A stretch of 64,000 nucleotides of DNA. It comes from Malacoraja senta. Lineage: Eukaryota. Below, one piece after another: positions 4,806 to 50,160 of this stretch. The stretch covers positions 17,486,001 to 17,550,000 of the forward strand of contig CM075988.1 of NCBI GenBank assembly GCA_038087875.1. Direction: 5' to 3'. Each line of letters begins with the position of its first letter. Position 1 is the first letter of the stretch. The notes under the pieces were generated by a model. The model was not told the origin of the DNA. It saw only the letters and a program-made list of their open reading frames with translations, and did no database searches. The position numbers and the translations under genes were made by a program.

Positions 4806-5619
4806 GAAGGGTTTCTGATGGTCAGAAGGGTATCAACTCAGAACCTCACCTATACCTTTTCTCCGGAGATGCTGCCTGACCCGCTGAGTTGCTCCAGCAT
4901 GCTGTGTCTATCTTCGGTGTAAACCAGCACCTGCAATTCCTTCCCACACATTCAGAAAGCATTTCTTTGGTTGAAAAATATTTAGGATAAGTCAAGATTG
5001 TGAACAATCTAGTTCGACTTAGGTTATGAACATCTTTATTTCTGACAGTCAAAACCACTTGATAAGATCTTAAGATTCAATGGATATTGGCGTTCGTAAA
5101 TACTCAGCCATCCCCTCTCTGGCTGTGCCCTTCCCCTCCACCAGCCTGCTTTCTCCAAAGAAGATGGACTTTTTTACACAACTATAAACATCTAGTTTGT
5201 AGATCCTAGTTTCCTGGATGCTCTATTAGGGAATGCAAAACTACTCCAGGTGAAATCCCTGACCATGCGCCAATTTCAGCAATGGTTACCTGAAATTAGT
5301 CATAGAAAGATATGACACAGAAGTAGGTCCTTTGGCCCACAGCGATAACAATACACAAAACAGGAACATGCCCTTTAGCCCACAATGTCTGTGTCGAATA
5401 TGATGACACGATAAAATCTCATCTGTCTGCATGTGATCCATATTGCTCTATTGCTCTCATATGCTTACACCTATCTAAAAGCCTCTTAAAATGCCACTAC
5501 CATATCTGCCTCCAAATTAATCAAATCAACCTTATTTTTTCAATTCTCCTCAGTTCCATTAAATTACCCCCACCCTGACACCCGCACCCCCAATTCTATC
5601 CATTCATCCACACACTATG

Positions 5620-5969: not shown

Positions 5970-6130
5970 ACTAGGGGCAGTTCAGAGTTAATCTACCAAT
6001 GCACAGGCCTTTGGGAAGTGAGAGGTAAGTGGAGCACCCGGAGTTGCAAACTCCACATAGACAGCGCCCAAGGTCAGCATTAAACCCCAGATCTCTGGCG
6101 CTGGGAGACAGTACCTCTAGTAGCTGAGCT
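5970..6130 (-). mobile_element. V-SINE fragment (old)
   Basis: TATGTGGAGTTTGCA...GGGTGCTCCA V-domain remnants. Confidence 0.6.
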
Positions 6131-6595
6131 ATCCCAAAACTATTCCTCTGCCCCGACTCAGAAAGGAGAAAAATTGTTCTTGATTCCCAGTCTTGTTGTC
6201 TGTACAGTGACTCCTGTGTAAGAGATGCACAGATGCGCAGATACGGACAAGATAAGGCTTGCTTGAATCCACTCATTCCTGCAGTGCGTTGAAGAATTTT
6301 ATGGCCAATTAGGTACCCAAGGGCTGAAGGCACCTGCAGAGAATCAATATGGAAGAACAAATTTCGACAGGAAACAAAGCCGGTGACAATAGAAATGTAT
6401 TGACATTGCTCTAACTTGACTTATTCTGTAAACCTGGTTTTCAGAGCTGAACGTCAAGTCTATGTATTAATTAAATAGATGAAGCATCAATTTTCTTTCC
6501 TTCTGGCAGACCAACATTGCAGTAGCCGATTTGCATCGGGAGACATTAAATCTCACTGGGCGACTGCGCAGAGCTGCCTGCTGTCTCTGCAGTGA

Positions 6596-6628
6596 GGGTT
6601 ACTACAGGTCGGCGACTGCCAGTAACCC
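6596..6628. promoter_or_regulatory. Paired inverted DR4 elements resembling LXR/RXR response elements
   Basis: GGGTTA-ctac-AGGTCG (+, 6596-6611), 1-bp spacer, then CGACTG-ccag-TAACCC (6613-6628; GGGTTA-ctgg-CAGTCG on the minus strand). Lies in repeat-free sequence inside a sterol-transporter intron. Confidence 0.6.
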
Positions 6629-8559
6629 AGCTTGCTGCCACTGTTGGGAGCTTCTGCATTTAAGCTCAGCGTGCAGTTTCACACAGTTGTCGGTCTGTGA
6701 ACACAAACAACACTGAGGCCACTGCAAATTTCCCCGAGGCAGAAAATAAATGCATTTACTGGTTTTTCATGGTCATATGAGTTGAGTAATGAGCAAGACG
6801 TTTTGTCCATGCTACGGTACTGAATTGCTGAGCGGTTTCACTAAGGCAAGAATAATTTGGAACTGAACTTCTTGGTGTTGCATTGATTCTGGGAGTCCTT
6901 GTAGCTTCCTTATCTTAAAAGGGATTTTTTTTTTTTTTTTAAACTTTAATACTTTTTTTATAATGGCTACTTCGGTGGGTATTTAAATTCAGCTGTATTG
7001 GTATGGGATACTAATCACATATAGAGATGTGTCTTTCCTTCCCAAAGGACATCTGAAACTAGGTGGAGCAACCGCACAAATATTGCCATTGCAACATAAT
7101 GCAATAAAAGGAACAAGTCAGGAGTGTGCTTGAATAGTATTGACGGTAAGAGGAACCGAGGTCTGAGGGATGACGGTTTACTGGCCGATCTAAATCGAGG
7201 TGATGGCTGGAGGCCTTGCAACAGACTGGGGCTCAACTGGGTCAGGTGCTGCTCCAAGGGATGGAGCCCAAAGGACCGGACTTGACCTATAGCGGCACGG
7301 AATGGTGGAGGAAGCCTAAATCTTCCCATATCCACGCCAAGCCTGCAACGTCGCCAAGCCAATGAGCATTTATGACCAGCTGCACTTAAAGCAACTTGGA
7401 CTTTGAAAATTGCGCCTAAACCTGGCGACTCATGTATATGGTCTCAGTGGACTAGTTCTACATACGTTGCATTTAATCTGAGATTATGCTTATGTACAGT
7501 AATAATTTACTGAATTGTATGCAAACAAAATCACTGTACCTCAGTACATGTTATAATAAAGAACCATTGACTTGCTTAGGTAAATGTAGGGTTTTCAGAA
7601 CTTAATAAGCATAATGCCAGACAAGATAAAACATGTTGTTTGGGTTTCCCCCCATGTACGACCTTAAAGATTCACTCCCCTCACCATCCATCCACCATAC
7701 CATTAAGTAGCACAAGGATTGCAGCTGCTCAGAAACACGTGGAATAAAAATGCAGGAAAAGCTCAGTTGTTCCGTCAACATGGGTGGAACAAGAAACCAT
7801 TAACGTTTCAGACTGAAGACCCTTCCTCAGTTCTGACGAAGGCTCTTCCACCCAAAATGTTGACCAATATTCTTTCCACAGATGCTGCATAACCTGCTGT
7901 GATTCATCAACATTTTCCGTTTTTTTATTCTAGATCATGCAGGTTAATTGGCCACTGTGACATGTCATTAGCGTGTAGGATGCGAAACTGGGATAATATT
8001 GAACCAGCGTACAATGTGGATTTTGTGCTGAGCGAAGACTCAGTGGTCAGAAGGGCTTGTTTCCATGCTGTATGTCTAAACTAAACTAGGCTAATCTGTA
8101 GTTTTTACTTCATATGTCTCCTTTAATTCACCCCCATCTTTGGTTCCTTTGTTGTCACTGGGTCAACATTTGCTTAGTAACACTCCTATGAGAAATCATG
8201 CTACATTATAAATGATATGTATTAAAAAACTGCTATTTGTTCAAGGTACCATCCTCACTGTCAATAATTCAACTGGAATGACTGGGAGCAAGATACTTTG
8301 AGGTCAGCAGATAGTGAGGAACAGACGTCCTAAGTGCTGGAAGGACATTTATTCCATTGGTGTAAGCTGTGGCATTCACTATTAGCTGATGTTGCTTTGA
8401 TCTTCATATCCATCCAAGCCACCTGAGCAGCCAGAAGGAGCTTCATTTTAATACCCCAAAGAGGAATGCGTCCACCAATGAATCATGCCATTAACACCAC
8501 GTCAAACATCTGCCTTGCTCTCATATTCAAAGTGGAGTTTGATCCCACAATCTACCGAT

Positions 8560-14610: not shown

Positions 14611-14715
14611 ATAAAGTTTAACCTTACGTGTACAGCAGGATGTAGTGAATGGTTTGCGGGGACCACAAAGGTAATAATCCTTGGGATTGGTACATTGGCA
14701 GAGGGCAAATACTAA

Positions 14716-15031
14716 CCTGTCCCACGGTGTGAGTTCATTCCAAGAGCTCTCCCGAGTTTAAAAAAAATCAAACTCGTGGTAAGCACGGAGAATGAACGTA
14801 GCGGGTACGTCGGAGCTCGGGAACGTCTCTTAGCGCTAACGGCAGGTACTCGGGAAGACTCGCTAATGGCAGGTAAGCACGGGAAGACTCGTGAAGATTT
14901 TTCAACATGATGAAAATTGTCCACGAGAGCCCCGAGTGCCGACGAGTGGCCATTACCGTGAATCTCCGAGTTCGAATCAGGGCAAACTCGGGAGAACTCT
15001 TTGAATGAACTCGTACCGTGGGACAGGGCTT
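14716..15031. mobile_element. PIF/Harbinger-type MITE
   Basis: Roughly 40-bp imperfect terminal inverted repeats (CCTGTCCCACGGT...GAGTTCATTC / GAATGAACTCGTACCGTGGGACAGGGCTT). TAA on both flanks; the left TIR lacks about 4 terminal bases. Confidence 0.8.
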
Positions 15032-15659
15032 TAAACTCTGAAACTTCCTCCCCCAGTCACAGAGACCCTCAGGTAAGATCTTTCTCTTTGACCAAGCTTT
15101 TGGCCATCTGTTCCCGTGTAGTTGGCTCAAGCATATTGGACAACTACCTTGAAACCATTCGGCCCATCGAGTTTGAGCTTGCTCTCTGAGCATTTCCCAG
15201 CAGTCTGTTTCACTTTGTCAAAGGTGTTATGTAAATACAGATTATTTTTGTCGCTCGTGTCCCTCACTGCCTGAACTCTGGTGATATAATTACACCGTAA
15301 ACCTTTCACATTAACCTCAGCTGAGTTTCAATTTCCAGTCGAAGTCATCCATCATCATTAACTTATTTAATGCACCAACACCTGAATAATTCCAAATCCC
15401 CCTCTTGCTTTTCATCATTGCGGTGCTCACTATACATGAGCCGATTACATCAATTAAGGTTTATCTGCAGCAAGGCAACTGTACATCATTACCGCCATCT
15501 GCAAGGGAATGTTTTTTTTAAAACAAGTCATAAACCAGCAATGACCCAAATAGCTTTCATTGGTTGAGAGTGCTGTACTGAGCTGACTGAATACAGTTCC
15601 TATTGTTAATAACAAGCTTGAGCTTTCGGCAGCAGTAACAGTTCCTCACACAGCGCAAA

Positions 15660-24550: not shown

Positions 24551-24841
24551 TGGGCCTGTCTCACCTAGGAGATTTTTCAGGCAACTGCCGGCGCCTGAAA
24601 AAACGGCAACTGGAACAGGCGACTGTTAGAGTGAAACACACACACACATCGCTTCCTTCACCAGCCCGTTATGCAGGCGTGGGACAGGGCAAGCGGGTGG
24701 AGCGCTGACTGAGTGAAATTCACATGGTGCAAAGCCAAGGTGATACCGCGTTGGACAGGAAGGTTGGCGCTGTAATTAAGACGGCCAAAGCACAGTGGCG
24801 ACTGCATAGTCTCCTGCAGTCGCCTAAGTGAGACAGGCCCA
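24551..24841. mobile_element. PIF/Harbinger-type MITE
   Basis: Perfect 14-bp TIR TGGGCCTGTCTCAC...GTGAGACAGGCCCA with TTA TSD at 24548-24550 and 24842-24844. Confidence 0.92.
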
Positions 24842-26484
24842 TTACTCACCTCGACAGTATCTTCTTTTTCAAGGTCTGTAATACTCTCTATTTACCTCTT
24901 TGCTTGTTCCCGTGTGTTCCCCTCTTTCTTAGCCAAAAGAAAAGGCAAATGTTCACTCCTTGAAGTTGGAGAATTGTGGGTTCAAGCTCCACTCAGGAGA
25001 CCCTCTGGCCTTTAACACATGGGTGACGGGTCAGTGCTGTGTTGAATGATTGCTGCTCTGTTAAGGCAGCCTGGATTCAAATGAAACATTGGTAGAGAAG
25101 GCGGAGGTATGTTCCCTCATGACATTTAAGAAGCATCAAGACAAGTACTTGAATCACCACAGCATAGAAGGCTAGAGCAAATACAGGTAAATGGGGCTAG
25201 TACAATGATCAGCATGGAAATGGTGGGCCGAAAGGCCTGTTTGTGCTGTTGTATTCCATGACTATTAACTTAGGGCATGATCTTCAAGTGATTATTTCCA
25301 ATATTCAAAAAGACCCATCCATACAAACAACAGATAAGACCCACAATTAGACCCGTCTTACATGGCTCACAGTTGAATCCAGGTATCACCTTTCATTCAC
25401 ATCTAATGTACTTGCCTGCACCTCCTCACCCTATTTATACCATGCAACACGACTGTCCTTCCAATTGACTTTGCACGGTGACATTGGTAGAACTACGGGA
25501 GCTTTGTGACTACAACACAACATCACAGTCATGAAAGGAGAACAGAGAGGATATTAAAGAACTCCATTAAAAGAATTAAACCGGATAGTAAAAATTCTCA
25601 CTTACACAAAACACACATTCAGTTTACATATTGCTTTGGGTTGGGAGAATCAAGTTGTTTCTCAGGATCTTGAGGGATTTTAGCCAAGACATTCAATGTT
25701 TCCATCTAGAAAAATTGCTAACTGATCAAATAAAAATACAACCTGCCAGTGCAGCCATAGCTCCTCCAACTAGGTAACTAAATGCAACATAAAATTGGCA
25801 TTCAAAAGACATTAGGATATGCATAAAGATCTGCAGGGAATGAAGAGATACGAGTTATCTGCGGGTAGATAAATGATGGTCTTGGCATCTTGTTTGGCAC
25901 AGATATTGCGGGTTGAAGGGCCTGTTCTTGTGCTGTAATGTTCTATTTTCTATGATCTAACAGAGCACACGAATACACATGAAGTGCTGGAGCAACTCAG
26001 GGGACAGGCAGCACGTCTGGAGAAAAAGGATGGGCGACGATTCGGGTCGGGATCCTTCTTCAGTTCCTCCAGCACTTTATGTCTATCTTCGGCATAAACC
26101 AGCATCTGCAGATCCTTTCTAAACACTAATACACATGTCTCCCTGCAGTCGGTCTCAATACAACAATATGGGGAACAACCATGCTTGCCTTGCTATTCCA
26201 GGATGCTGAGTACACTTACCGCACCTCTACCACTGTCACGGAGGTAACATTATCTCAGGAGCACAGCTGTGGCCTTATTAGATTCGAATGTCAGTTGTAC
26301 AGTGGGCACTGCGAGCTGTATTTAATATATTTGCACAGAGCTTACTTTCATATTTCCATTTGTTGTACAGGGGCATTTCTTCAATGGATTGGCAATATAT
26401 CAATGGAATGATGTCAGCCCAAAGCATTAGCAATTGTACAATAACTAGGAGCATGCACTATTGCACATCAGGAGTCAAAATATT

Positions 26485-28353: not shown

Positions 28354-29515
28354 AGACAATAGACAATAGGTGCAGGAGTAGGACAATTCGGCCCTTTGAG
28401 CCAGCACTGCTATTCACAGTGATCATGGCTGATCATCCACAATCAGTACCCCGTTCCTGCCTTCTCCCTATTGGCCCTGTCCCACAGGCAGGCGGTTACT
28501 GGCGGTGAAGCGCGGCGCCCCCGGAAGCGGGGACCGCGCGGCTACCGCGAGAGCGCCGTGCGTATGCCGCGGGAGCGCCGCACGGATGCCGAGTGATCTC
28601 CGTACGGCCGGTCCCACGAGCTTGCAGTAAGTAAAAAAAAATTAAACCTTACCGGAAGCTGTTGCCGCACGTATGCCGGGTGGTCACCGCACGGCCTGTC
28701 CCACGGGCCGACTGGAATGGATGTCGCGCGGCGTCGGGTGAAGACGTCATCGCGCAATGCAACGCGCTACGCGATGACATCAATTTGGCTCGCGGCGCTG
28801 TGGCGGTGCTCGTGCCGCTCGCGGCGCACTGGCGGCGCTGTGGCGGTGCTCGTGCCGCACTGGCGGCGGCTGTGCGGTAGGACAACATTTTTGAACGTTG
28901 TCGACTTTTTGTGAGCACCGTGCGGTGTTGGTACCAACACCGCACGGTCCCGGTGGTGTGCGTGGGACCGACCCCGCGGGCCATGCACGGTCTCTGGCGG
29001 TCCACGAGCGGTCCCGACTTGCTGCTTCACCGCCAGTAACCGCCAGTAACCGCATACCCGTGAGACAGACCTTTAAATCCCCTGGCTCCGCTATCTTTAA
29101 GAGCTCTTTTCTAACTCTCTCTTGAAAGCATCCAGGGAATTGGCCTCCACTGCCTTCTGGGGCAGAGAATTCCACAGATTCACAACCCTCTGTGTGAAAA
29201 AGTTTTTCCTCATCACCGTTCTAAATGGCTTACCCCTTATTCTTAAACTGTGGCCCCTGGTTCTGGACTCCCCCAACATCGGGAACATGTTTTCTGCCTC
29301 TAGCGTTTCCAAACCCTTAATAATCTTATATGTTTCAATAAGATAACCTCTCATCCTTCTAAATTCCATAGTAAACAAGCCCAGCCGCTCCATTCTATCA
29401 ACAAATGAGAGTCCCGCAATCCCGGGAATTAACCTCGTGAACCTACGCTGCACTCCCTCAATAGCGAGAATGTCCTTCCTCAAATTTGGAGACCAAAACT
29501 GCACAGAATACTCCA
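28354..29515 (-). mobile_element. CR1-type LINE fragment interrupted by a Harbinger MITE
   Basis: ORF 29097-29546 EYSVQFWSPNLRKDILAIEGVQRRFTRLIPG...NLWNSLP; tail at 28354-28470. Confidence 0.9.
28472..29073. mobile_element. GC/CpG-rich PIF/Harbinger-type MITE
   Basis: Imperfect TIRs TGGCCCTGTCCCAC / GTGAGACAGACCTT, with subterminal GCGGTTACTGGCGGTGAAGC inverted at both ends. Flanks are TAT and TAA. Splits a CR1 copy. Confidence 0.85.
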
Positions 29516-30949: not shown

Positions 30950-31250
30950 TATGGCACGATGGTGCAACAGTTGGGTTGCTGCCTGACAGCGACAGAGACC
31001 CAGGGTCGATCCCAACCACGGGTGCCGTCTGTGTGGAATTTGTACGTTCTTCCCTTGATCGCATGGGTTTTCTCCAGGATCATTGGTTTACTCCCACACT
31101 CCAAAGACGTACAGGTTTGCAGGTTAATTGGCTTGGTATAAATATAAATTGTCCTTAGTGTGTACAAGATAGTGTTAATGTGCGGGGATTGCTGGTTGGT
31201 GTTGACTCAGTGGGCCAAAGGGCTGTGTTTCTATGCTGTGTCTCTAAACA
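30950..31250 (+). mobile_element. V-SINE
   Basis: tRNA-like head, V-domain and TCTCTAAAC tail. Confidence 0.8.
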
Positions 31251-31254
31251 ACAA

Positions 31255-32465
31255 AGGAGGCGGCAGAAGGTGGTGGACATTTCCCAGTCAATTATAGGAA
31301 CTGGCTTTCCCACCATCAAAGGGATTTACAGGAAGTGCTGCTTCAAGAGCCATCTAATATCATCAAAGACCACACCGCCCTGACCACACTCTCATCTCGT
31401 TGCTACCATCGAGATGGTGGTACAGAAGCCTGCGAACCATACCTCCAGTTTCAAGAGCAGTTTCTTCCCATCAGCAATGAATCAGCCTGTACAGCCCCAA
31501 CCGCAATCCTATCTTTGGCATCAATTCCAGCAACATCAACCGACTCCAACTGGTCCAGAATGCAGCCGCCCGACTCATTACCCACACCAAATCCTGGCAC
31601 CACATCACCCCAGTTCTCAAAGAACTCCACTGGCTCCTCATTTCCCACCGGATCATCTACAAAATCCTGGTCCTCACCTACAAAGCCCTCAACCACTTGG
31701 CCCCCCCCTTATCTCACTGACCTCCTCTCCCCCTACCAACCCTCACGGTCCCTCACATCCACATCAGCTGGTCTCCTCTCCACTCCGAAATCAAACCTCT
31801 GCACTTTTGGAGGCAGAGCCTTCTCCAGGGCAGCTCCCAGGCTCTGGAATTCCCTCCCACAACTGATCCAAAATTCTGAGTCCCTCACCATCTTCCAGTC
31901 CCGCCTCAAGACCCATCTCTTCACCTCTGCATACCCTTAGTCCCATGTTCCCCTCCCCTTTGCATCTCTGTCTTACTGCTCTATTTTATTTTGTTTATTC
32001 TTGACTCTCAATGTAAAGCGACTTTGAGTCCTGAAAAGCGCTATATAAATAAAATGTATTATTATTATTATTATTTTTACCTCTACACCAAACAATCTCC
32101 ATATCACCGTCTATATCTCTTGTTTCCCTTTCCCCTGAAGGGTCTTGCCCCAAAACGTCACCTATTCCTTTTCTCCAGAGATGCTGTCTGTCCCGTTGAA
32201 TTATTCCAGCATTTTGTGTCTATCTTCGGTTTAAACCAGCATCTGCAGTTCCTCCCCTGCACCAAACAACTATGGACTTTTCTCTATTCTGGTTGCTTTA
32301 AGTAATTTGGTTTTTGCACTATCAAGGTTTAGTTTGCTTAGAATTACAGATAATTTATCATATATTTATTTTTGTTGTTGTCGTTGCATCTAATGTGCAT
32401 GCAAAGCTGCCGCTGGTAAGAATATTGTTGTTCCGTTTCATATGCGAAATGAACACTCTGACTCT
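31255..32465 (+). mobile_element. Rex1-like LINE 3' fragment hosting L2 and Penelope inserts
   Basis: PTIKGIYRKCC and IIKD..H motifs before 31500; the 3' region resumes near 32258. Confidence 0.6.
31505..32075 (+). mobile_element. L2-type LINE 3' fragment
   Basis: RLQLVQNAAARLITHTK...HITPVLKELHWL and RAFSRAAPRLWNSLP; tail GAAAAGCGCTATATAAATAAA plus (TAT)n. Confidence 0.9.
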
Positions 32466-35775: not shown

Positions 35776-36004
35776 CTCTTTTCTTCCAACAAGGACCCTC
35801 CCTTATAGAGTAGGAGATATCGTTGAATTCTATGTCCACTGCAGGGCGCTTGGGGAGGTGGGAGAACCGCTGTGCCTCTGTGATATGGTTTTCCACCTTC
35901 TTCAGGTGTGTGGTGAGGAGAGGCGCGTCCTGGGATCCTCCATTGCATACAGTGTCTTCGAGAGCAATTGTCACACAGCTAGCATCAGGTGGCTTTTCAG
36001 CCAT
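35776..36004 (-). CDS. ABCG4: First coding exon of ABCG4 (ABC transporter G4); full exon 36013-35776
   Basis: Translation MAEK...PLLTTHLKKVENHITEAQRFSHLPKRPAVDIEFNDISYSIREGPCWKKRG closely matches the vertebrate ABCG4 N-terminus as I recall it (LTTHLKKVENHITEAQRFSHLPKR...VDIEF...SYSVREGPCWRKRG). Acceptor CCTTTCTCTCTCTCTTTCCCCCCACAG ends at 36014. Phase-1 donor AGAG|GTTAGG follows 35776 (229 coding nt = 76 codons + 1). Confidence 0.95.
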
Positions 36005-36817
36005 AACTCCACGCTGTGGGGGGAAAGAGAGAGAGAAAGGTAAAGTTAGGAAGATGGTTTGTCCTCTGCTCCAACATATTACGGGAACTGAACTGAGTCT
36101 GCCACTTGGTTTTCTCGTGATTTGTTTCTGAGGGTAATGGATATTGATCGATTACAAGCCGACACCCTCCCGCAGCTATCATTACTCTACCTCATCTAGC
36201 CCAGCATCCTATGAATCCATCGCATATTTCTAGCTACATCTTTATCACATCAGTTCCATGATTTTCCACACCAGCGATATCCAAAAGCCTCTTAAATGCC
36301 ACCATCGTATCTGCCTCCACCACTACCCCTGGCACTCATCACTCTTTGTGTAAAATAAAACTTGCCCAGCACATTGTCTTTAAATGTAGAAACAAAGAAC
36401 TGCAGATGCTGATTTATACCAAAGATCGACACAAAGTGCTGGAGCAACCCAGCAGGTCAAGAAGCATCTCTGGAGTAAAAGGATGGGTGACCACACCAGT
36501 GCTGTCTTCCTTACACACCAACAACGGCATTCCCATCACCATCGTTGATGGGGTGGTCCCAACAGTATCTGATCCATTTCTCACATTTCCACTCTCAAAG
36601 GTAGGACTCCCCTTGTCCTCACTATATACTGTTAGCAGATTATTTTTCTGGCACAAGGGAAAAGTGGCAGCATCAACACAGAGAGAGGCACACTTGAGGT
36701 CATATACATTCAATGTTACATCCCTTCGGAGAATAACTCAATGATTTGTGAAGTCCACGAGCCGTGCAAGATTTTCTTTTTTTTGTTGTTATTTGTGAAT
36801 GGGAATTCAGTGAAGTT

Positions 36818-44550: not shown

Positions 44551-45414
44551 TTTATAGGTGGAATTAAGTTGTATTGCAGAAGCTGTTTGTGGATAGTTAA
44601 GTCACCTGGATTTGTTGAACACCACAGGCTGAAAGGCATAGAACACATAGAATATAGGAACAGAAGTAAGCAATTTGGCCCTTCAAGCTCTGCTCTGCAG
44701 ATTCAGTATGATCATGGCTGATCATCCATATTTAGTACTCTTTTCTAGCTTTCTTCACATGTACCTCGATCCCTCAAGTTCTGTGAACTACATCAAACTT
44801 CTTGAATGTATTTAATGACCCGGCTTCAACTGTTTTCTGTTAGAGAATTTCACAGGTTCACTGCTCTGGCAGAAAAAAACCCTTCTCATTTCCACCTTAT
44901 ATGGCTCACCCCCCTTATCCCTAGTCTGTGATGCCTTGTCCTGAACACTCCTCCCAATAGGAACACCGCTCCAGCAGGTAGCCAGTCCAGTCCTTTCAGA
45001 ATATTGTCCTTCAATATTGAGAGCACTCTAGGTACACATAATCTCTCTTGGCAAGTCTATTTTAATTTTCTATTCAACTTGTTTTACCAACAACTTTGTA
45101 TCCTGCCAGATACACTAGGACCTGGCCCAGTCACCATGAGCATCACTATTGAACTGATCACTCCATGGACCAGTATCTCCTCATATTCCATCCCCTCCTT
45201 CCATTTACTTAGATGGGAAATGGTTTAGCGGGATATGAGCCAAATGCGGACTGGTAGGACTAGTGTAGATGGGGTATCTTGGTTGGTTAGGGCATCTTGG
45301 GCTGAAGGGCCTGTTTCTGTGCTGTATGACTATGATTCTACAGTTTCATTTGAAGGCAAACCATCCAACTAGAAATAGTTCAGTAGCAAAACAGAATTTC
45401 TCCTCATTGGCTCC

Positions 45415-46225
45415 AAATCAACACTCACTAAAATTAACAACCCCACTCTCACTATCGACAGTACCACTGTCTCCCCATCTCCTCAGGCACGCAACCTTGG
45501 CGTGATCCTTGACTCAACCCTCTCCCTTGAGCCTCACATCCGCCATGTTGTCAAAACATCATTTTTTCACCTTCGCAACATTGCAAAAATCAGATCGTCT
45601 CTCACACCCCCCGCTGCTGAAAGACTCATCCATGCCTTCATCTCCTCCCGACTGGACTACTGTAACTCTCTTCTTTTCGGAATCAATTCCAGCAGCATCA
45701 AACGACTCCAACTGGTCCAGAATGCAGCCGCTCGACTCATTACCCACACCAAATCCTGGCACCACATCACCCCAGTTCTCAAAGAACTTCACTGGCTTCC
45801 CATTTCCCACCGGATCACCTACAAAATCCTGGTCCTCACCTACAAAGCCCTCAACAACCTGCCCCCCCCTTATCTCATTGACCTCCTCTCCCCCTACCAA
45901 CCCTCACGGTCCCTCAGATCCACATCAGCTGGTCTCCTCCTCCACTCCGAAATCAAACCTCCGCACTTTTGGAGGCAGAGCCTTCTCCAGGGCAGCTCCC
46001 AGGCTCTGGAATTCCCTCCCACAACCGGTCCGAAATTCTGAGTCCCTCACCATCTTCCAGTCCCGCCTCACGACCCATCTCTTCACCTCTGCATACCCTT
46101 AGTCCCATGTTCCCCTCCCCTCTGTCTTACTGCTCTATTTTGTTTTGTTTATTCCTGACTCTCAATTGTAAAGCGACTGAGTCCTGAAAAGCGCTATATA
46201 AATAAAATCTATTGTTATTATTAAA
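45415..46225 (+). mobile_element. L2-type LINE 3' fragment
   Basis: ORF RNLGVILDSTLS...FFHLRNIAKIR...LIHAFISSRLDYCNSLL...LQLVQNAAARL; L2 tail. Confidence 0.92.
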
Positions 46226-48999: not shown

Positions 49000-50160
49000 T
49001 CTGTCGACGCTAGGGGTTGGGTGGGCACTTAAGAGGGTGGCAGGAAGCAGGAGATCAACTCTTAAGTGTATTGATTAAAACAGACCTCTGAATTATTAAT
49101 CGGCCGCATGCCTGCCGAGAACTCGCTACTTACTGCAGGCAGAAGGAAAAATCCTCAGCGAAAGACAATAATAAATCTCAAGAATTATATCTCATCGTTC
49201 AAAGCTTCTAACCTAACGACTGCAAACTAGCAAGGCTGCTGCACTGTAACTGGGGCGGTTTAACATTTCGCGTAGAGTGTTGTCATGGTCTTAAAGCACA
49301 TCTTGCTAAAACTCCAGGGCATAATCCATGGGCGTTGGGTCCATGTCGCTTCTCCGACCAACCTCGGGAGATAAGGGTTGTTCTAGCGGACAGGATCCAG
49401 CCGGTGATTATATTCGCTCGCGTTAAAAAGGGGAGGCAGGCGGAGGAGACCGCGGATATCTTTGGGAATGAATGATGTGCAACGAGAGAGGAGAGAGGGA
49501 GGAGGGGGGAGGACATCCATTGTAACTGGTGAAACCAGCCGAGACCCGCCGTCAAAATAAAATAAAGCAAATAGCAAATATTTCACATGCACAAAACTGG
49601 GCGCAAAACTGTTCCGAAATAATATCGGTGCGAATGATATGCTCTGTCGTCATTGAGAAACTAATTTGGCAAAGGAAAAAAATAAACAATATATAATTTA
49701 AAAGCTAGTATCTACTCAAAGATTGCAGCAGGCGCTCCATACCTCTGTGTTAATGCGGTTTGTAGATAGATTACAGCGTCGCTCGGGACCCTACAGTCGA
49801 TCCCCTCTTACCCGCCCCATAGACTTGCAGCTCCGATTATTCCCCTTACAACACACACACGCCCTCTCTACTCCAGCGTCTAATCGGCAAAGCAGCTCTA
49901 ATCCTTCCTTGTTTAAACCATGGTTTCAAATAAAAAAATCAATAATCCCATTTAAATCGCTGATGATCCCGCGGGCAGAATTCCGAGTGGCTGCAATCTT
50001 TTTGCTTATGTATACCTTACATTCTTAAAACACGTCGCAAACTGCTCCAAATTAAAGACACCAATGTACAGACTCGTTGGGCGACTTTGAGAGCCCTTTG
50101 TTCATTGTATTGGCCGAGGCGCAGGAGAGTCGCCCAGTTGCGATGATGTTATTACAAGGA
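49000..50160 (-). promoter_or_regulatory. CpG-rich candidate ABCG4 promoter and non-coding first exon
   Basis: Repeat-free, CpG-enriched stretch about 13-14 kb upstream of an ATG exon that has its own splice acceptor, so an upstream exon is required. Minus-strand donors: GAG|GTATGG (exon end 49743) and GCA|GTAAGT (exon end 49134). CCAAT/ATTGG motifs near 50061 and 50110. Confidence 0.6.

What the first reader, a model, noticed from the sequence alone, without database searches (positions are those of the whole stretch)
6596..6628. Back-to-back inverted pair of LXR-type DR4 elements deep in the ABCG4 intron
Seen: GGGTTActacAGGTCG-G-CGACTGccagTAACCC, two DR4-like 16-mers in opposite orientation 1 bp apart, in repeat-free sequence with retained CpGs. 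Known: LXR/RXR binds DR4 sites of the form RGGTTAnnnnAGGTCA. The first site differs from this by one base. The second differs at two positions from the mammalian SREBP-1c LXRE as I recall it (TGACCGccagTAACCC). ABCG1 is a classic LXR target through intronic DR4s. Inference: a sterol-sensing enhancer for this ABCG4, possibly loading two heterodimers.
Basis: partly seen in the sequence, partly recalled or inferred. Interest (0 to 1): 0.7.

Follow-up and report, generated by a model that had tools for sequence, protein, structure and literature searches.

The report
Candidate cholesterol-sensor site in ABCG4 intron
A shark or ray gene for a cholesterol exporter carries, deep in an intron, one strong and one weak look-alike of the binding site of the cholesterol sensor LXR; this is probably an ordinary sterol-responsive switch, and neither binding nor deep conservation has been shown.

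Summary
The 33-mer is as described. It lies 29 kb into the intron after the first large coding exon of a cartilaginous-fish ABCG4, in 1.7 kb free of window repeats. Site 1 is the best LXRE-like match of the window in 6 of 9 matrices built from six published LXREs; 0.02-0.34 such sites are expected by chance in this intron. Site 2 is weak: its inner half-site misses 3 of 6 consensus bases, and three equally SREBP-1c-like 16-mers sit in a transposon of this window. A second site this good within 100 bp of site 1 has a chance of 0.002-0.05. Three of four relatives laid hold a single-copy orthologue. The listed changes in the 33-mer are the 1-bp spacer (all three) and one change that makes site 1 perfect. 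These relatives are only 3-5% diverged, so this is background level. Best reading: an intronic LXR/RXR element at site 1 (about 0.6); loading of two heterodimers is unproven (about 0.3). It is a new member of a known kind. It matters mainly as a test of whether LXR control of ABCG4, disputed in mammals, is ancestral.

The parts
6596..6611 (+). Site 1: near-consensus LXR-type DR4 with CT at spacer positions 7-8; last base G instead of A (a CpG)
   Evidence: in run X4 the last base is A, which lifts the score from 17.6 to 22.1 of a maximum 22.5
6612..6612 (.). 1-bp spacer between the two DR4s; G here, A in all three relatives laid, so G is probably the derived base
6613..6628 (-). Site 2: weaker DR4; good outer half-site and CT spacer start, inner half-site 3 of 6 off consensus; 14 of 16 to the mouse Srebf1c LXRE
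   Evidence: no listed change in X4 or X15
6230..6920 (.). Single-copy block around the sites, possibly more conserved than the unique DNA to its right (candidate enhancer)
   Evidence: indirect and borderline
6529..6536 (+). Perfect octamer (POU-type) motif 60 bp from site 1; possible partner site (motif identity recalled)
   Evidence: one of 9 octamers in the window; no listed change in X4 or X15
35776..36013 (-). First large coding exon of ABCG4 (ATG at 36004; acceptor AG 36015-36014, donor GT 35775-35774); the only ABCG4 coding exon found in the window
49300..49900 (-). CpG-rich stretch with a donor-like site near 49743: probable ABCG4 promoter and exon 1, about 43 kb from the sites (inferred, not tested)

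Best explanation
Site 1 is an LXR response element in an intronic enhancer of ABCG4. SHOWN: the sequence, its place, its single-copy status, its rank, and its presence in three relatives. FROM ESTABLISHED KNOWLEDGE: RXR/LXR heterodimers bind DR4 elements, hold co-repressors without ligand and co-activators with oxysterol; RXR takes the 5' half and LXR the 3' half (recalled). INFERRED: when oxysterols rise, LXR/RXR at site 1 activates the ABCG4 promoter about 43 kb away by looping and raises sterol export. Site 2 is at most a low-affinity helper, perhaps from an old inverted duplication of the same unit; I put its function as a second heterodimer site at about 0.3.
For: Site 1 scores 17.6 bits, inside the leave-one-out range of six published LXREs (12.6-21.1), and is first in the window with spacer positions 9-10 masked; 31 of 600 simulated windows hold one as good. 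A pair within 100 bp as good as the weaker site occurs in 1, 3 and 62 of 600 simulated windows, by matrix. Both sites have the CT spacer start of the human LXR ChIP-seq motif. Single-base changes barely altered LXRE reporter activity in PMC3616743. The only listed change inside either DR4 moves site 1 to the perfect consensus. In X4, 293 of 871 31-mers are intact in 6200-7100 (34%) against an implied 3% (0-16%) in the rest of 6120-7820. Skate LXRalpha and LXRbeta are activated by oxysterols and T0901317. Human ABCG1 has a very strong LXR peak at chr21:43,653,831-43,656,120, by my recall of its exon positions in the equivalent intron.
Against: Site 1 alone is not rare: 0.02-0.34 expected by chance in the 35.7 kb of intron, and 170 of 600 simulated windows under the unmasked matrix. 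The matrices rest on six sites only. The 33-mer is no more conserved than its surroundings: 2 variable positions against 1.6 expected. The change to A at 6611 is also the ordinary decay of a methylated CpG. 14 private changes of X21 are unlisted and one may fall in the sites (chance of none 0.58 if uniform); X20 gave no contig. LXR induction of mammalian ABCG4 is disputed, and ABCG4 does not occur in the 10 supplements of a human LXR target study. The skate LXR assays used GAL4-LBD fusions, so DNA specificity was not tested. No binding, chromatin or expression data exist here.
Confidence: 0.6

Rival explanations
1. Chance: a good DR4 look-alike and a short inverted repeat in neutral intron DNA, picked out because the gene suggests LXR.
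For: Up to 0.34 sites as good as site 1 are expected in the intron. About 30 distinct perfect inverted repeats of 8 bp or more with 3-30 bp between arms occur in the 44.6 kb of non-repeat DNA (50 start positions). The 33-mer varies at background rate.
Against: Site 1 is top of the window in 6 of 9 matrices. A second site within 100 bp has a chance of 0.002-0.052. The block is among the two longest repeat-free gaps and looks more conserved than its right flank. Site-centred tests on X4 plus X15 give p = 0.23, 0.046 and 0.066 for +-50, 100 and 150 bp.
Confidence: 0.2
2. A real DR4 element read mainly by another receptor, most likely thyroid hormone receptor/RXR, with LXR competing or absent.
For: DR4 is bound by both LXR and TR; the GLUT5 DR4 is used by both.
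Against: Both outer half-sites match those of 3 of the 6 published LXREs used, and both sites have the LXR-type CT spacer start. The gene family is a classic LXR target. No TR matrix was available, so the two were not scored against each other. An FXR-type IR1 at the centre is unlikely because one half has 3 mismatches.
Confidence: 0.1
3. The inverted pair is a worn remnant of a miniature DNA transposon of the kind found three times in this window, with or without later use as an enhancer.
For: The element at 28474-29072 has inverted subterminal copies that share 10 bases with site 2 and score like it. 6551-6567 matches the end of the element at 24552-24842 at 16 of 18 positions (15 of 300 shuffles, 4 of 252 unique windows); a loosely gapped alignment to that element was reached by 5 of 200 shuffles and 0 of 252 windows.
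Against: No pair of terminal inverted repeats flanks the site. Anchored flank tests are not significant after six comparisons (best 10 of 500 random and 40 of 500 shuffled). The other two elements give no signal. Only one contig per run laid at 80%. The relatives' A at 6612 shortens the shared word.
Confidence: 0.1
4. Both sites work: a convergent double DR4 loads two RXR/LXR heterodimers cooperatively. This is a stronger form of the best explanation and its probability is counted within it.
For: The pair statistics; site 2 has no listed change in X4 or X15; the inner half-sites sit 1 bp apart in inverted order, a geometry that two DNA-binding domains can occupy as in FXR/RXR (recalled).
Against: Site 2's inner half-site has 3 mismatches; with the Srebf1c site left out of the matrix its rank falls to 8-23 and its chance rises to 0.01-0.05. 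Steric fit of two full heterodimers was not modelled.
Confidence: 0.3

Closest known systems
Intronic LXR response elements of mammalian ABCG1 (LXRE-A, LXRE-B)
   Same: DR4 elements inside an ABCG1/ABCG4-type transporter gene. A strong human LXR peak lies 35 kb inside ABCG1, in the intron after the equivalent exon if my recall of the exon positions is right.
   Different: This is the paralogue ABCG4, in a cartilaginous fish. The ABCG1 element sequences could not be read, so homology of the elements is untested. I saw no report of an adjacent inverted pair there.
Mouse Srebf1c (SREBP-1c) promoter LXRE
   Same: 14 of 16 bases identical to site 2 and 12 of 16 to site 1.
   Different: Both differences from site 2 fall in the 3' half-site and leave it 3 of 6 off consensus. 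It is a promoter element, not an intronic one.
Human ABCG5/ABCG8 enhancer LXREs in ECR10 and ECR20
   Same: Distal DR4s in conserved non-coding blocks of sterol-exporting ABCG genes; the ECR20 element matches site 1 at 11 of 12 half-site bases.
   Different: Single elements shown by EMSA, ChIP and reporter; here there is no experiment.
Transposon-borne DR4 sites (Alu/DR4 bound by LXRalpha)
   Same: Precedent for LXREs supplied by repeats; a transposon in this window carries LXRE-like 16-mers.
   Different: The 33-mer itself is single-copy and shows no clear transposon ends.

Membership tests
LXR response element (DR4) | Two AGGTCA-like half-sites in direct repeat, 4 bp apart (site 1) | tested here: met
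   1 mismatch in each half to RGKTCA; score within the range of six published LXREs
LXR response element (DR4) | Two AGGTCA-like half-sites in direct repeat, 4 bp apart (site 2) | tested here: inconclusive
   outer half 1 mismatch, inner half 3 mismatches; score 12.6 equals the weakest published site in leave-one-out
LXR response element (DR4) | CT at spacer positions 7-8, as in the human LXR ChIP-seq motif | tested here: met
   both sites
LXR response element (DR4) | Bound by an LXR/RXR heterodimer | not testable with these tools
   needs EMSA or ChIP
LXR response element (DR4) | Confers oxysterol- or T0901317-dependent activation that is lost on mutation | not testable with these tools
   needs a reporter assay
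LXR response element (DR4) | Ligand-responsive LXR exists in the lineage | not tested
   taken from PMC5381633: skate LXR ligand-binding domains respond; DNA binding was not assayed
Conserved non-coding enhancer | Slower change than neutral DNA nearby | tested here: inconclusive
   33-mer at background; block-level p 0.05-0.25; indirect 34% against about 3% intact 31-mers
High-copy repeat or MITE remnant | Many similar copies | tested here: not met
   no self-match in the window; 1 contig per run in 3 runs at 80%; no whole genome to search
High-copy repeat or MITE remnant | Terminal inverted repeats or clear homology to a family | tested here: inconclusive
   borderline likeness to one of three elements, no pair of ends
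Known structured RNA | Match to an Rfam family | tested here: not met
   0 matches at gathering score in the window; 2 chance matches with E above 5 in 6300-6950, neither on the site

The most novel reading that the evidence does not exclude
The pair is a convergent double DR4 that loads two RXR/LXR heterodimers, with the LXR DNA-binding domains meeting across 1 bp. It descends from an LXR enhancer already present in this intron before ABCG1 and ABCG4 split, kept in cartilaginous-fish ABCG4 and weakened or lost in mammals. Both inner half-sites end in CG where the consensus has CA. 5-methylcytosine on the opposite strand can stand in for thymine (recalled principle, not checked for LXR), so the element could be tuned by CpG methylation.
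Probability: 0.12. Interest if true: 0.62.

Novelty: new member of a known kind. Interest (0 to 1): 0.35.

Why it matters
Whether ABCG4 is a direct LXR target is unsettled in mammals, and my searches found no paper describing an ABCG4 LXRE. A working LXRE in the ABCG4 intron of a cartilaginous fish would show that the sterol-sensing circuit is wired to a target gene in this lineage, beyond the ligand response already shown. It would also make it testable whether LXR control predates the ABCG1/ABCG4 duplication. The 33-mer is a ready probe. Without the double-site or methylation features it is an ordinary response element.

Tried and rejected
Whole-genome search: no genome held. RNA evidence: no RNA holder listed. 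Run X20 (organism H) gave no contig, which can be a filter effect. Structured RNA: the 33-mer folds as a hairpin (z -2.9 and -3.3) but 106 nt around it do not (z -0.9 and +0.2), short inverted repeats are common here, and Rfam has no match; rejected. CpG retention as evidence: rejected. FXR-type IR1: rejected on 3 mismatches. Extended inverted duplication of the flanks: 27 of 500 random and 31 of 500 shuffled flanks score as well, borderline. Core 6412-6736 against the rest in X4 gives p 0.03, but its borders were chosen after seeing the data, so I do not count it. Further ABCG4 exons in the window: none by tblastn. Earlier findings of the scan: none. The original ABCG1 LXRE paper and a methyl-CpG binding survey were not held; a search on ABCG1 intron position returned 0 papers. 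PMC10056409 added nothing. A weak human LXR peak at chr11:119.027-119.029 Mb (FDR 8.8% with agonist, 2.0% vehicle) lies, by recall, within ABCG4 but not in the equivalent intron; not used either way.

Full report
OBSERVATION. Window 6596-6628 is exactly as quoted. It holds a DR4-like 16-mer on the + strand (site 1, 6596-6611), one base, and a DR4-like 16-mer on the - strand (site 2, 6613-6628). The two converge, with their 3' half-sites facing. The stretch 6120-7825 has no match elsewhere in the window, in which 30% of bases do. CpG content is unremarkable: o/e 0.54, reached by 138 of 603 non-repeat windows.

GENE CONTEXT. An exon at 36013-35776 on the - strand encodes 77 residues, 69 of them identical to a shark ABCG4. 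Of 408 hits the best 120 were listed; the closest full-length ones are cartilaginous-fish ABCG4 (90% and 86%), and no listed name reads ABCG1. Human ABCG1 in the PDB matches more weakly (E 2e-18). No other ABCG4 exon is in the window, so the sites lie 29.1 kb into an intron of more than 35 kb. A CpG-rich stretch at 49.3-49.9 kb is the probable promoter (inferred).

IS IT MORE THAN CHANCE? The plain consensus with one mismatch gives 6 matches against 5.4 expected. I built matrices from six LXREs printed in papers: Srebf1c, GLUT5, GLUT4, ABCG5/8 ECR10 and ECR20 and ABCA1. Over nine variants (three spacer maskings, three training sets) site 1 ranks first of 127,970 positions six times and 2, 2 and 5 otherwise, with 0.02-0.34 equal sites expected in the intron. 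Site 2 ranks 6-23; the chance of a site that good within 100 bp of site 1 is 0.002-0.052, highest when the Srebf1c site and the spacer are left out. Pairs as good occurred in 1, 3 and 62 of 600 simulated windows. Both sites have CT at spacer positions 7-8, as the human LXR ChIP-seq motif does (PMC3295715). Against site 2: its inner half-site is 3 of 6 off consensus, and a transposon at 28474-29072 carries three 16-mers that are also 14 of 16 to the Srebf1c site and score slightly higher.

RELATIVES. No genome is held. A run search listed 24 rows; 21 come from eight other coded organisms and hold 14-20% of the words. I laid 4 of these 21 on 6200-7100; 3 gave one contig each at 90-95% likeness and X20 gave none. 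The table shows 40 of 65 rows. All 23 changes of X4 are listed. 26 of 37 of X15 are listed, and the ordering implies that list is complete to 6762 (my inference). 15 of 32 of X21 are listed, and 14 private ones are unseen. Within the 33-mer the listed changes are 6612 G>A (the spacer) in all three and 6611 G>A in X4, which makes site 1 a perfect consensus. By sharing pattern G is the older base at 6611, and G>A at a CpG is also ordinary decay. Two variable positions in 33 is background (1.6 expected); at 5% divergence the test has no power. Site-centred windows show somewhat fewer changes than the rest (p 0.23, 0.046, 0.066 for X4 plus X15; 0.18 and 0.25 for X4 alone). Indirectly, 6200-7100 explains 0.175 of X4's word share of 0.19, leaving about 3% (0-16%) intact 31-mers in the other 800 positions against 34%.

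TRANSPOSON RIVAL. Three MITE-like elements in the window were compared with 6500-6720. One gives a 16-of-18 match at 6551-6567 (15 of 300 shuffles) and a loose alignment reached by 5 of 200 shuffles; two give nothing. Anchored flank tests are not significant after six comparisons. No pair of ends flanks the site. This is not excluded but is weak.

MECHANISM. Most likely (0.6) site 1 binds RXR/LXR in an intronic enhancer and links oxysterol levels to ABCG4 transcription. Skate LXRalpha and LXRbeta are activated by oxysterols and T0901317 (PMC5381633), in GAL4 fusion assays that do not test DNA binding. Single mismatches are tolerated in LXREs (PMC3616743). The human paralogue ABCG1 has LXREs (PMC8707585; PMC5618541) and a very strong LXR peak 35 kb inside the gene; that this is the equivalent intron rests on recalled exon positions. 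For mammalian ABCG4 'some but not all studies' find LXR induction (PMC11170721); one found induction by infection plus agonist (PMC5159539). Function of site 2 as a second heterodimer site is about 0.3. Rivals are chance (0.2), thyroid hormone receptor as main reader (0.1; PMC6594926; PMC8851562) and a transposon remnant (0.1).

WHAT IS KNOWN. It works like an LXRE if it works at all. Membership is met on sequence for site 1, inconclusive for site 2, and untested for binding and activity. Searches for an ABCG4 LXRE listed no paper describing one; the library lacks most subscription journals, including the primary ABCG1 and ABCG4 papers, so this is weak evidence.

PAPERS SEEN. Part 2 of 4 of the text plus passages: PMC5381633. 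Passages plus searches of supplements: PMC3295715 (all 10 files searched once, file 3 searched four more times; the matrix is a figure and was not seen). Passages only: PMC5618541, PMC13022077, PMC6594926, PMC11170721, PMC3616743, PMC2844827, PMC4133900, PMC8707585, PMC7545717, PMC5159539, PMC10056409, PMC8851562. Title in a reference list only: Sabol 2005, Engel 2001, Tarr and Edwards 2008. Recalled, from no call: RXR/LXR polarity on DR4, FXR binding to IR1, the octamer motif, methyl-C standing in for T, human exon and gene positions of ABCG1 and ABCG4 (apart from the ABCG1 start), and the Harbinger label.

VERDICT. A real and well-chosen candidate LXRE with a doubtful partner. New member of a known kind; interest 0.35.

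Noticed in passing
window 28474-29072: CpG-rich MITE-like element with terminal inverted repeats, inserted in a retroposon remnant. Its subterminal repeats are 14 of 16 identical to the Srebf1c LXRE (28493 +, 29027 -, 29037 -), so this family could seed LXRE-like sites across the genome.
   Followed up: partly
window 24552-24842: Second MITE-like element with related ends and an apparent TTA target-site duplication (Harbinger-like, label recalled); borderline likeness to 6500-6720.
   Followed up: partly
window 14714-15032: Third CpG-rich element with related terminal inverted repeats.
   Followed up: partly
window 49300-49900: CpG island with a GC box and a donor-like site near 49743 on the - strand; probable ABCG4 promoter and first exon.
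   Followed up: partly
window 4809-4824: Another DR4-like 16-mer 1.8 kb from the pair, second-best in one matrix (14.1 bits); it overlaps the edge of a high-copy repeat at 4821-4955.
   Followed up: no
window 6529-6536: Perfect octamer motif 60 bp from site 1, with no listed change in two relatives; could point to a POU partner factor.
   Followed up: partly
window 7100-7820: Unique within the window yet apparently sharing few 31-mers with relatives; all three orthologous contigs end near 7380-7450. Possibly a lineage-specific insertion or fast-changing DNA.
   Followed up: partly
window 45379-46041 and 31248-31940: Reading frames that look like reverse-transcriptase remnants of LINE elements (recognised by eye, not searched).
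   Followed up: no
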